Below are positions 61,601 to 64,000 of a DNA stretch of 64,000 bases, one piece after another. The stretch is from Escherichia coli. GTDB taxonomy: Bacteria > Pseudomonadota > Gammaproteobacteria > Enterobacterales > Enterobacteriaceae. A program made the position numbers. Position 1 is the stretch's first letter; each line of letters starts with the position of its first letter. The stretch lies in the NCBI RefSeq assembly GCF_041248615.1, contig NZ_CP158426.1; one strand, given 5' to 3'.

Positions 61601-64000
61601 GCTACATACAGTTCATGTACCATTAAAAAATAATAAAGGTTAATTAGTATTATTTATAGAAGTATGTTTATGTAATTCTACCGTGTAAATGAACCCTGTA
61701 ATTCTACCTTGTAAATACACCTTGTAACCAAGTCCTGTAGAAGTCTGTCTCATAGAAGTATCTGTGCAGTGATATTCTCTGTAGTAGTACTTGTAACTCT
61801 GTTCTTAACTCTCTCTTCAGTAATGTAGTCCCGCAACACCTGAATATAAATCTGTAATGTTCACACACTGACTGTAACGTGCTTTGTTAAGTAATGTCTG
61901 CTATTTTTTTTCTGTTATTTTTCCTGTTGTTTTCTGTATTTTGTTGTATGGTGTAATAACTATTCTGAACCCGTCATCACCTTTATAGCTAAGAGTATGA
62001 CTTCGCCAGTGTTGATACTGTGGATAACGGTGATTAAGGAATTACTGTTAATGATCTGTTCCTGCAGCTCACCTGATGAGTTTTGGTAGTAATACGTAAA
62101 AGAGTATGCCTCATGTCATTAAAAAGTCTTCCGGAGTGTTGTTTAACCCTGTACCTCTGTTACTCATGTAGTACGTTGCGGAAAGCTACGTTAATTGTAA
62201 TATCTGGTTATGGCGTTATGCCTTCAGTATTAAAAACATCTTTTACCGGAGAAACTGGGAAGTGGAAAGGCTTTCGGGATAACGTCAGGCCATTATGACG
62301 ATATTACGTTAATCACAGTACAAGATAACGAGAGGGTAATGGAATTTTAAACCAGAGTAGTTCCACTGTTGTTCACTGGAAAAAGTGATTTCCCACGCGC
62401 GTTATAAGCTTACTCCAGAGGAGATGGAAGCCTTCAACTCTGCGGTCGATCACCGGCTGGCAGAACTGACCATGAACAAACTTTACGATCGTGTTCCCGC
62501 TTCAGTCTGGAAATATGTTACCTGATAAATGTTTCTGATGAAGTACAGTCGTCACAATGACATCACTTCAGATATTATCTGCGCTGTGATTGACTGTCAC
62601 GTATGCCGTTCTCTGTATGGTTCTGATACCCGGGTGTGGTCCCACTTTCTCTGTGGCGCCCGGGGAGTTGTGAACCTGCACGTCTTCGTGTGATAACGTT
62701 TTCTTCAAAAATTACGCCAGCGCTTCTTCCTGTGTTACAGAACACGAGGAAGAAACATGAAGACTTACAACACCAATCCCGGTTACGAAATGGATCCCCA
62801 GCTCCTGACACACTTTAACCAGCATCTGGATTCATTATTCGGGGTATATTCGAAACTGTTACCGTTCAGAATGGATTTTGCTTACCGAAAAAACACCCTC
62901 AGCTACAGATGTGCCTGCAGGTACGCCATGTGCGCGGAGATACTGCGACTGATTAACGAAGTGGGAGAGAAACTGGTCGGGTATGCCTGGGTAATGGAAT
63001 ATACGGAACGTAAAGGGCTTCACATTCATTTTGTGGGCTATCTGAACGGTCAGAGCCACAGGAGTTCGTATCTGGTATCCAGATTGATGGGAGATATCTG
63101 GAGGCGGGTTACCGGGGGGGATGGTTACTACCACTGGTGCCGGTTTAATAAAAATTATCCGGTAAACATTAACCACGTCATTCACTATTCAGATCACAAA
63201 GCGGTGAATGCCTTACGCTATGCCATCAGCTACCTGGCCAAACGAGAACAGAAAGAATGTGGCATCATCCTGAAATGCAGCGGGCTTCCTGAAAAAAGTA
63301 ATCGGGGTCGACCGCGACTGGGCAGCCCCCTGCCGGAGACTTATTCTCTGGTGTAAGACCCTGAACGACAACTACGGGCTGGCGCTAATTGTTACAGTCG
63401 GTTCCGGAGGCCACTTCAGGGACTCTGCGCATTTTTTACGACATGAGCCTGTACATAGATTTGTGTAATTGCCTGATTTTGATATGTTCAATCCAGCATC
63501 AAATGAAGGTTAATTTATGGACGAAAAACAGTTACAGGCTCTGGCTAACGAACTGGCCAAAAACCTCAAAACCCCTGAAGACCTCAGTCAGTTTGATCGG
63601 CTGCTGAAAAAGCTCAGCGTTGAAGCCGCTCTCAATGCAGAGATGACACACCATCTTGGGTATGAGAAAAATCAGTCCAGACCAGGAGCTAACTCCCGCA
63701 ACGGTTATTCCACAAAGACCGTTATCACAGGCGACGGTCCACTGGAACTGCGTACTCCGCGCGATCGTGACGGTACCTTCGAACCACAACTGGTAAAGAA
63801 AAATCAGACCCGTATTACCGGGATGGATAACCAGATCCTCTCGTTGTATGCCAAAGGGATGACCACCCGTGAGATAGCCGCTGCGTTCAAAGAACTGTAT
63901 GACGCAGATGTTTCACCGGCACTGATATCAAAGGTTACCGATGCCGTGATGGAGCAGGTTGTAGAATGGCAAAACCGACCACTGGATGCTGTTTACCCCA

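What the first reader, a model, noticed from the sequence alone, without database searches (positions are those of the whole stretch)
61640..61990. Array of TGTAA-containing direct repeats upstream of the RHH-like gene
The sequence tgtaattctaccgtgtaaat (61671..61690) is repeated almost exactly 26 bp later (61697..61716, tgtaattctaccttgtaaat). It is followed by many further CTGTA/TGTAA motifs (ccttgtaacc, cctgtagaag, tctgtaatgt, actgtaacgt) in a 350-bp non-coding stretch. Iteron-like repeats of this kind are typical of regulator or replication-initiator binding arrays, or of attachment/recombination sites in integrative elements.
Basis: seen in the sequence. Interest (0 to 1): 0.5.

Follow-up and report, generated by a model that had tools for sequence, protein, structure and literature searches.

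The report
Hypervariable 13-bp repeat array in island control region
The TGTAA repeats are real, but they are a fast-changing copy-number-variable repeat in the non-coding control region of an E. coli genomic island; the conserved, probably functional element is a 21-bp box next to them that accompanies a rolling-circle-Rep-like gene.

Summary
Six units (TGTAAwtnnaCCn) sit head to tail at exactly 13-bp spacing (61671-61748). Five more same-strand TGTAR copies follow up to 61877. That gives 11 copies in 250 bp, against a window mean of 0.35 and none on the other strand.

The window is an E. coli genomic island, with a 90-95% identical copy in CFT073. The array lies in a 1044-bp gap. On its left are a YagM-family gene with a CopG-like RHH N-terminus, then alpA. 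On its right are a truncated hha-like gene and a YagK/YfjJ 'inovirus Gp2-type' gene that looks like an HUH Rep.

Comparison weakens the fixed-iteron or operator reading:
- The array is a VNTR, with 0-12 units and 23 alleles in 41 loci.
- It is absent from some islands whose genes are full length.
- It is absent from Citrobacter and Pectobacterium relatives that have the same RHH strand and an 81% identical AlpA.
- A sister island family carries unrelated 12-13-bp tandem repeats at the same spot, although its Gp2 proteins are 94-98% identical to each other.

The conserved element is the adjacent box TTAAGGTTAATTAGTATTATT. In 52 of 52 metagenome loci that have both, it lies upstream of a Gp2-like gene on the same strand.

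Best reading: a slippage-made variable spacer in the gp2-side control region. A true Rep-binding iteron array remains possible. The finding is ordinary to moderately interesting.

The parts
61671..61735 (+). Five tandem 13-bp units: TGTAATTCTACCG, TGTAAATGAACCC, TGTAATTCTACCT, TGTAAATACACCT, TGTAACCAAGTCC.
61736..61748 (+). Sixth, degenerate unit TGTAGAAGTCTGT, in phase with the others.
61657..61667 (+). Left copy of the TAGAAGTATGT repeat. Other copies lie at 61738-61748 and 61753-61763. Together they bracket the array, and the array-less alleles end at these repeats.
   Evidence: family D2; L027
61753..61763 (+). Right copy of the bracketing repeat, TAGAAGTATCT.
61780..61877 (+). Five dispersed same-strand TGTAR copies (61780, 61792, 61824, 61853, 61873), present in all E. 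coli variants aligned.
61634..61654 (+). Conserved box TTAAGGTTAATTAGTATTATT, ending 16 bp before the first repeat. It is the only block shared with a sister island family and always lies upstream of a Gp2-like gene.
61398..61414 (+). Second, box-like element TGTTAATTCATATAATT. It overlaps the best + strand promoter-like hit (TTCATA-18-TATAAT, 61384-61413).
61903..61950 (+). T-rich tract. It is deleted in some variants (K99S, MIN10).
62019..62027 (-). The only perfect DnaA box (TTATCCACA) in the 64-kb window. It is conserved in 5 of the 6 aligned variants.
60549..61340 (-). YagM-family protein (PF27701, 263 aa) with a CopG-like ribbon-helix-helix N-terminus.
59959..60165 (-). AlpA-type winged-helix protein (68 aa, excisionase family).
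62385..62525 (+). N-terminally truncated Hha/YmoA-family gene, which aligns to Hha residues 23-71.
62757..63356 (+). YagK/YfjJ 'inovirus Gp2-type' protein (199 aa). It has a conserved HxH motif and a Y-L-A-K motif, and its predicted fold resembles HUH nucleases.

Best explanation
The array is a hypervariable minisatellite (VNTR). It arises by slippage or unequal exchange of a 13-bp unit (26-bp A+B double unit). It begins 16 bp downstream of a conserved 21-bp box that marks the upstream control region of the YagK/YfjJ (Gp2-like, HUH-Rep-like) gene in several enterobacterial island families.

It is not a fixed set of operator or iteron sites. Units are gained and lost in steps of 8, 12-13 and 25-26 bp, and the whole array can be lost.

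Each change has two consequences. It alters the distance between the box and everything to its right: the dispersed TGTAR copies, the T-rich tract, the DnaA box, and the hha and gp2 genes. It also adds or removes -35/-10-like hexamers (TTTACA, TAGAAT) on the opposite strand, which face yagM-alpA.

The most likely effect is therefore quantitative, contingency-type tuning of the divergent control region, or no effect at all.

Shown here: the repeat, its polymorphism, its dispensability, the box, and the linkage between the box and gp2. Inferred, not shown: any effect on expression or replication.
For: - Tandem structure far beyond chance.
- 23 distinct alleles among 41 loci, with 0-12 TGTAR copies.
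- At least 15 length classes among 60 sampled genomes, out of 747 E. coli genomes that carry the region.
- Recent expansions by double units: 11 units in O111 strain 7-58 against 7 in 13E0767. An 8-bp sub-slippage (TGTAATTC x3) also occurs.
- The array is deleted between the bracketing TAGAAGTAT repeats in L027. It is also absent in L085, where yagM, alpA and gp2 are full length.
- Core positions mutate about as freely as the rest: 3 of 15 core sites vary against 9 of 24 non-core sites, Fisher p = 0.31.
- The array block is the least conserved part of the intergenic region, and that region is no better conserved than third codon positions.
- In the sister family the same position after the box carries unrelated repeats: GTTATGTTATCT x2, or GTGGTGGTATTGT x2.5. 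The Gp2 proteins of those islands are 94-98% identical to each other.
- The box is the only alignable block between the two families: 45 bp at 84% identity, against 70% for the gp2 coding sequence.
- The box lies upstream of gp2 on the same strand in 52 of 52 loci.
Against: - The TGTAR motif is also present as five dispersed, fixed, same-orientation copies.
- The two outer units keep the core while the rest of the unit has diverged. Both points are what a real recognition motif would show.
- Tandem repeats of 12-13 bp recur at the same spot in independent families. This could reflect selection rather than a mutational hot spot.
- Many of these islands are decaying (truncated hha, frameshifted gp2 in CFT073, IS insertions), so relaxed constraint today does not exclude a function in active ancestors.
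- No expression or binding data exist.
Confidence: 0.45

Rival explanations
1. The array is a true iteron-like array at a rolling-circle-type origin. In this model the box is the nick or recognition site for the Gp2-like HUH protein. The TGTAA units and the dispersed copies are accessory Rep-binding sites, like the 'bind' locus of pMV158 or the iterons of CRESS-DNA viruses. The T-rich tract and the DnaA box would help DNA melting or host priming after AlpA/integrase-driven excision.
For: - The Gp2-like protein keeps an HxH motif and a YxxK motif across homologues down to 22-38% identity.
- It matches Pfam REP_ORF2-G2P at 1e-4.
- The box is linked to gp2 in 52 of 52 loci and contains TAGTATTAT, which is 8 of 9 matches to the circovirus/nanovirus nonanucleotide TAGTATTAC. 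That sequence is from my own knowledge, not a tool result.
- The only perfect DnaA box in 64 kb, plus a T-rich tract, lie within 350 bp.
- An RHH protein next to an HUH Rep recalls CopG-RepB.
- A preprint reports copy-number gain of an integrase plus a Gp2-family gene in E. coli Nissle in mice (10.1101/364505).
Against: - Repeat sequences differ completely between islands whose Gp2 proteins are 94-98% identical.
- The array is missing from islands with full-length genes and from the L103, L126, Citrobacter and Pectobacterium relatives that keep the box.
- The 13-bp spacing is not in phase with the DNA helix.
- There is no consistent hairpin around the box.
- No plasmid or phage carries this region.
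Confidence: 0.25
2. The array is the operator for the adjacent RHH protein (YagM family), or a binding array for AlpA acting as regulator or excision factor. Many dimers or monomers would bind head to tail to control yagM-alpA or hha-gp2 transcription.
For: - The YagM N-terminus aligns in register with CopG and matches the RHH family aCcr1, both weakly. The model shows the helix-helix part of the fold.
- RHH proteins and wHTH excision factors are known to bind arrays of direct repeats (established knowledge; for RdfS/BldC).
- The array lies in the divergent region upstream of yagM-alpA.
Against: - Citrobacter and Pectobacterium islands have the same RHH beta-strand residues (RITFN) and an 81% identical AlpA, but no TGTAA cluster anywhere in 10 kb.
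- The element conserved across genera next to yagM is a different motif, TTATGCA-N11-TATGATTAACA, directly upstream of the start codon.
- The sister family has the box and repeats but no yagM.
- The array is 331 bp from yagM.
- The 13-bp spacing differs from the roughly one-turn spacing of known excision-factor arrays.
Confidence: 0.1
3. The array is a tandem promoter array for yagM-alpA. On the - strand each A/B unit pair recreates ATTACA-16-TAGAAT or TTTACA-17-CATACT, so copy number would set the number of promoters.
For: Four of the five - strand promoter-like hits in 61200-62800 fall inside the array. No consensus promoter was found closer to yagM.
Against: - The hits score only 9 of 12.
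- Array-less alleles and the Citrobacter-type islands keep yagM.
- The conserved motif directly upstream of yagM is the more likely promoter or operator.
- A 310-nt leader would be needed, and it shows no unusual folding.
Confidence: 0.07
4. The array is an attachment site or integrase arm-type site.
For: Direct repeats are typical of arm-type sites.
Against: - The locus is internal: island genes flank it on both sides in every copy examined.
- No tRNA is found in the window.
- In L016 the integrase lies on the far side of yagM, and no repeats are there.
Confidence: 0.02

Closest known systems
Promoter-region VNTRs of contingency loci (for example the 7-bp repeats upstream of Haemophilus hmw1A/hmw2A and the TAAA tract upstream of Neisseria nadA; from my own knowledge)
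   Same: A head-to-tail short repeat in an upstream non-coding region. Copy number differs widely between strains and changes by slippage. The repeat is not needed for gene integrity.
   Different: The unit is longer (13 or 26 bp) and degenerate. It lies in a horizontally acquired E. coli island between regulatory or replication-type genes. No phenotype or switching has been shown.
pMV158 double-strand origin with CopG and RepB (from my own knowledge)
   Same: An RHH protein and an HUH-type Rep-like protein flank a non-coding region that holds short direct repeats near a conserved sequence.
   Different: The pMV158 'bind' repeats are 11 bp, fixed in number and bound by RepB. Here the units are 13 bp, range from 0 to 12 copies, and differ in sequence between islands with near-identical Rep-like proteins. 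No nick site or hairpin has been shown.
CRESS-DNA virus and geminivirus origins (conserved nonanucleotide plus lineage-specific iterons; from my own knowledge)
   Same: An invariant short box (containing TAGTATTAT) lies next to lineage-specific short direct repeats, upstream of an HUH-type gene.
   Different: There is no conserved stem-loop around the box. The repeats do not co-vary with the protein. The element is a chromosomal island.
Direct-repeat arrays bound by excision or regulatory factors (P2 Cox boxes, 186 Apl sites, lambda Xis X1-X2; RdfS and BldC head-to-tail filaments, PMC11963761)
   Same: Several same-orientation short repeats in a mobile-element control region, with an AlpA-type wHTH protein encoded nearby.
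   Different: Those sites are spaced about one helical turn apart and lie at att sites or promoters. Here the spacing is 13 bp, the locus is internal, and relatives with an 81% identical AlpA lack the array.

Membership tests
Replication-origin iterons (theta or rolling-circle replicons) | Repeat sequence and number are conserved and matched to the cognate initiator. | tested here: not met
   0-12 units, with 23 alleles in 41 loci. Unrelated repeats occur in islands whose Gp2 proteins are 94-98% identical.
Replication-origin iterons (theta or rolling-circle replicons) | Repeats lie beside an initiator gene, an AT-rich unwinding region and host-factor sites. | tested here: inconclusive
   The Gp2-like HUH-type gene is 1 kb away on the same side. 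A T-rich tract lies at 61903-61950 and one perfect DnaA box at 62019-62027. No IHF consensus site was found. The T-rich tract is deleted in some variants.
Replication-origin iterons (theta or rolling-circle replicons) | The initiator binds the repeats and replication starts there. | not testable with these tools
   This needs gel shifts or footprints and replication assays.
RHH (CopG/omega/MetJ-type) operator arrays | Repeated subsites overlap the regulated promoter and are conserved wherever the DNA-reading beta-strand is conserved. | tested here: not met
   The array is 331 bp from yagM. Citrobacter and Pectobacterium YagM proteins have the same strand (RITFN) but no TGTAA array. A different motif is conserved next to yagM.
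Excision-factor (AlpA/Xis/Cox/Apl) binding arrays | Direct repeats about one helical turn apart, at an att site or a regulated promoter, conserved together with the factor. | tested here: not met
   The spacing is 13 bp. The locus is internal to the island. An 81% identical AlpA occurs without the array.
Integrase arm-type or att sites | Located at an island end, next to the integrase gene and the tRNA target. | tested here: not met
   No tRNA is found in the window. Island genes lie on both sides in all copies.
VNTR / minisatellite (contingency-type repeat) | Head-to-tail repeats whose copy number differs between strains. | tested here: met
VNTR / minisatellite (contingency-type repeat) | A change in copy number switches or tunes expression of a neighbouring gene. 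| not testable with these tools
   This needs reporter fusions carrying natural alleles.

The most novel reading that the evidence does not exclude
The conserved box, the adjoining repeat-prone segment, the T-rich tract and the DnaA box together form the origin of an undescribed replication mode. After AlpA/integrase-driven excision, the YagK/YfjJ (Gp2-like) HUH protein would nick at the box and replicate the island circle. The tandem repeats would be accessory binding sites, or scars left by repeated initiation and termination at that site.
Probability: 0.15. Interest if true: 0.7.

Novelty: new member of a known kind. Interest (0 to 1): 0.3.

Why it matters
YagK/YfjJ-type genes sit in the conserved 'backbone' of many E. 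coli and enterobacterial pathogenicity islands and cryptic prophages, and they have no assigned function.

The repeat array is probably of little consequence by itself. It might serve as a strain-typing marker, or act as a tuning element.

Following it up exposed a strongly conserved cis element that is tied to these genes. This gives a concrete, testable target for asking whether such islands replicate or are regulated through an HUH-type protein.

Tried and rejected
- **Known RNA family.** Rfam gave no match in 61300-62800 even at E <= 1.
- **Coding potential.** The short ORFs in the gap are broken by indels in other variants.
- **tomB remnant upstream of hha.** No tblastn match was found.
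- **Plasmid or phage origin.** There is no phage match. The plasmid matches are E. coli records: one of 1 Mb, one of 41 kb that also carries part of yagM, and an IncHI plasmid that matches only the stretch upstream of hha.
- **Providencia 4.1-kb plasmid with a YagM-like gene.** It has no iterons and no informative partner gene.
- **K-12 CP4-6 and CP4-57.** Their layouts differ and they have no long intergenic gap.
- **Array upstream of the second gp2 paralogue in the same island.** None was found.
- **Array pattern in 100,044 species genomes.** Only unrelated taxa matched.
- **Repeat sequence in the literature.** No relevant paper was found.
- **P. aeruginosa AlpA antiterminator as a direct model.** That protein has more than 140 residues and a Q-like body, whereas the island AlpA has 68 residues. 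I kept this only as a lead.

Full report

Yes. The two 20-mers are at the stated coordinates. Tandem Repeats Finder reports period 26 (2.2 copies, 87% matches, score 86) and period 13. The repeat finder shows copies at 13-bp steps.

Six TGTAR-headed units lie at exactly 13-bp spacing (61671-61748). In 20,000 Markov shuffles of the intergenic region the longest such chain was 3. The motif TGTAAWTNNACC matches exactly four times in the 64-kb window, all in the array.

Five more TGTAR copies follow on the same strand, at 61780, 61792, 61824, 61853 and 61873. That gives 11 on the + strand and none on the - strand in 250 bp. The window mean is 0.35 and the next-best region has 3.

**2. Where is it?**

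The window is an E. coli chromosomal genomic island. It is 100% identical to strain F1022 and 90-95% identical to the CFT073 chromosome near 283-286 kb, and to Nissle 1917. The region occurs in 753 of 5426 complete E. coli genomes and never on plasmids.

The array lies in a 1044-bp non-coding gap (61341-62384).

To the left, on the - strand:
- A 263-aa YagM-family protein (PF27701; a small family with 39 representatives at 50% identity).
- A 68-aa AlpA-type protein.
- A 205-aa protein of unknown function.

The YagM N-terminus (MTTRITFNMTSDETLRIVDEY...LSRSKVINTLL) aligns in register with the RHH repressor CopG and matches the RHH family aCcr1, both weakly. The AlphaFold model shows the two helices of the fold.

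To the right, on the + strand:
- An N-terminally truncated hha-like gene.
- A 199-aa YagK/YfjJ 'inovirus Gp2-type' protein.

**3. What do homologous islands show?**

The array is present in most copies but is extremely polymorphic:
- Ten fetched E. coli variants have 3 to 11 units. Expansions occur by double units, and an 8-bp sub-slippage is seen.
- Sixty sampled genomes show at least 15 length classes.
- Pooling genomic and metagenomic copies gives 23 alleles in 41 loci, with 0-12 TGTAR copies.

Two allele types have no array. In L027 and E143 it is lost between the bracketing TAGAAGTAT repeats. In L085 it is absent although yagM, alpA and gp2 are full length.

The TGTAA core is itself hit by substitutions (TGTCA, CGTAA and TGCAG in the CFT073 type). 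In the three units present in nearly all alleles, 3 of 15 core sites vary against 9 of 24 non-core sites, which is not a significant difference.

The whole intergenic region is no better conserved than third codon positions of the flanking genes. The array block is its most variable part.

**4. Which gene does it belong to?**

More distant islands in Citrobacter and Pectobacterium keep a divergent yagM/gp2-like pair separated by about 390 bp. They have no TGTAA cluster. Their YagM beta-strand is identical (RITFN), and in the Citrobacter island, the one compared, AlpA is 81% identical while Gp2 is only 38% identical. This argues against YagM or AlpA as readers of the TGTAA units. The element conserved across genera next to yagM is a different motif (TTATGCA-N11-TATGATTAACA) directly upstream of its start codon.

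A sister E. coli island family has the layout alpA, a DUF3987 gene, a 970-bp gap, then a Gp2-like gene (62% amino-acid and 70% nucleotide identity). It has no yagM at all. Its gap shares only one 45-bp block with the window, at 84% identity. That block centres on TTAAGGTTAATTAGTATTATT, which ends 16 bp before the first repeat in the window. In the sister family the block is also followed at once by a tandem repeat of unrelated sequence, GTTATGTTATCT x2.

I scanned metagenome contigs for the exact 17-mer GGTTAATTAGTATTATT and found 120 loci:
- 52 carry a Gp2-like gene with 30-100% identity. In all 52 the gene lies downstream on the same strand, 157-1503 bp away.
- The 65 loci with no hit to any of the three island proteins come from low-GC DNA and are probably chance matches.

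Citrobacter and Pectobacterium carry a diverged version of the box (GGGTTTTTAGTATAATTA) about 200 bp upstream of their gp2-like genes.

Within the sister family, the segment after the box differs between islands whose Gp2 proteins are 94-98% identical. It reads GTTATGTTATCT repeats in one, GTGGTGGTATTGT repeats in another, and other T/G-rich degenerate repeats elsewhere.

So the conserved cis element is the box. The position after it is repeat-prone, and the repeat sequence is not tied to the protein.

**5. Mechanism**

The best-supported reading (about 0.45) is a slippage-generated, copy-number-variable spacer in the gp2-side control region. Each gain or loss shifts the box relative to the downstream sequence. 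It also adds or removes weak -35/-10-like hexamers facing yagM-alpA. Any function is quantitative tuning, and none is shown.

The main rival (about 0.25) is a true iteron array at a rolling-circle-type origin. The arguments for it are:
- The neighbour is HUH-like.
- The box is tightly linked to it and contains TAGTATTAT.
- The only perfect DnaA box in 64 kb and a T-rich tract lie within 350 bp.
- An RHH gene is adjacent, as with CopG and RepB in pMV158.
- A preprint reports amplification of an integrase plus a Gp2-family gene in Nissle.

The arguments against it are the lack of co-variation with the protein, the dispensability of the array, the off-helix 13-bp spacing, and the absence of a conserved hairpin.

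The operator, promoter-array and att-site readings are less likely, for the reasons given under the rival explanations.

**6. Comparison with known systems and novelty**

The array meets the definition of a VNTR. It fails the conservation-based criteria for iterons, RHH operators, excision-factor arrays and att sites. I found no paper that contains the repeat sequence or assigns a function to YagK/YfjJ.

The array is an ordinary kind of object in a new place. The link between the box and the Gp2-like gene is the more useful by-product.

**7. Verdict**

- Interest is 0.3.

Noticed in passing
window 61634-61654 (also L057 3251-3271; L013 4802-4818 on the - strand): The box TTAAGGTTAATTAGTATTATT is the only block shared between the upstream regions of two Gp2-like gene families. 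In 52 of 52 metagenome loci that have both, it lies upstream of a Gp2-like gene on the same strand. Citrobacter and Pectobacterium carry a diverged version (GGGTTTTTAGTATAATTA).
   Followed up: partly
window 61398-61414: A second, box-like element (TGTTAATTCATATAATT) coincides with the best + strand promoter-like site (TTCATA-18-TATAAT). Related CTGTTAAT motifs lie at 61352, 62045 and 62158.
   Followed up: partly
window 62723-62756: An inverted repeat (CTTCCTGTGTT / AACACGAGGAAG) ends at the gp2-like start codon and covers its Shine-Dalgarno-like GAGGAAG. Citrobacter and Pectobacterium have hairpins of different sequence in the same place, which suggests translational control.
   Followed up: no
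window 61341-61385, - strand: The motif TTATGCA-N11-TATGATTAACA directly upstream of yagM is conserved in E. coli, Citrobacter and Pectobacterium. It is the likely yagM promoter or operator.
   Followed up: partly
window 62019-62027: The only perfect DnaA box (TTATCCACA) in the whole 64-kb window lies in this gap and is conserved in 5 of 6 aligned variants.
   Followed up: partly
window 62385-62525 and 62191-62360: The hha-like gene lacks about 22 N-terminal codons. Other variants have a full-length copy or none. The 170 bp upstream of it is 79% identical to a stretch of an IncHI plasmid (pHum4b).
   Followed up: partly
L018 (Providencia plasmid NZ_CP114799, 4136 bp) and L019 (K-12 CP4-6): A YagM-family gene sits next to a serine recombinase/resolvase gene both on a 4.1-kb plasmid and in K-12 CP4-6 (yagM-yagL). 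This hints at a second conserved partnership for the family.
   Followed up: no
window 63518-64000: A transposase gene (IS256-like by my reading of the sequence) follows the gp2-like gene and runs off the end of the window. The 100% identical strain F1022 instead has an IS2 between hha and gp2, so IS content differs between near-identical islands.
   Followed up: no
window 6423-6545, 25909-25947 and 51783-52019: Rfam matches to the isrC sRNA, a JUMPstart element and the IS102 RNA elsewhere in the window.
   Followed up: no
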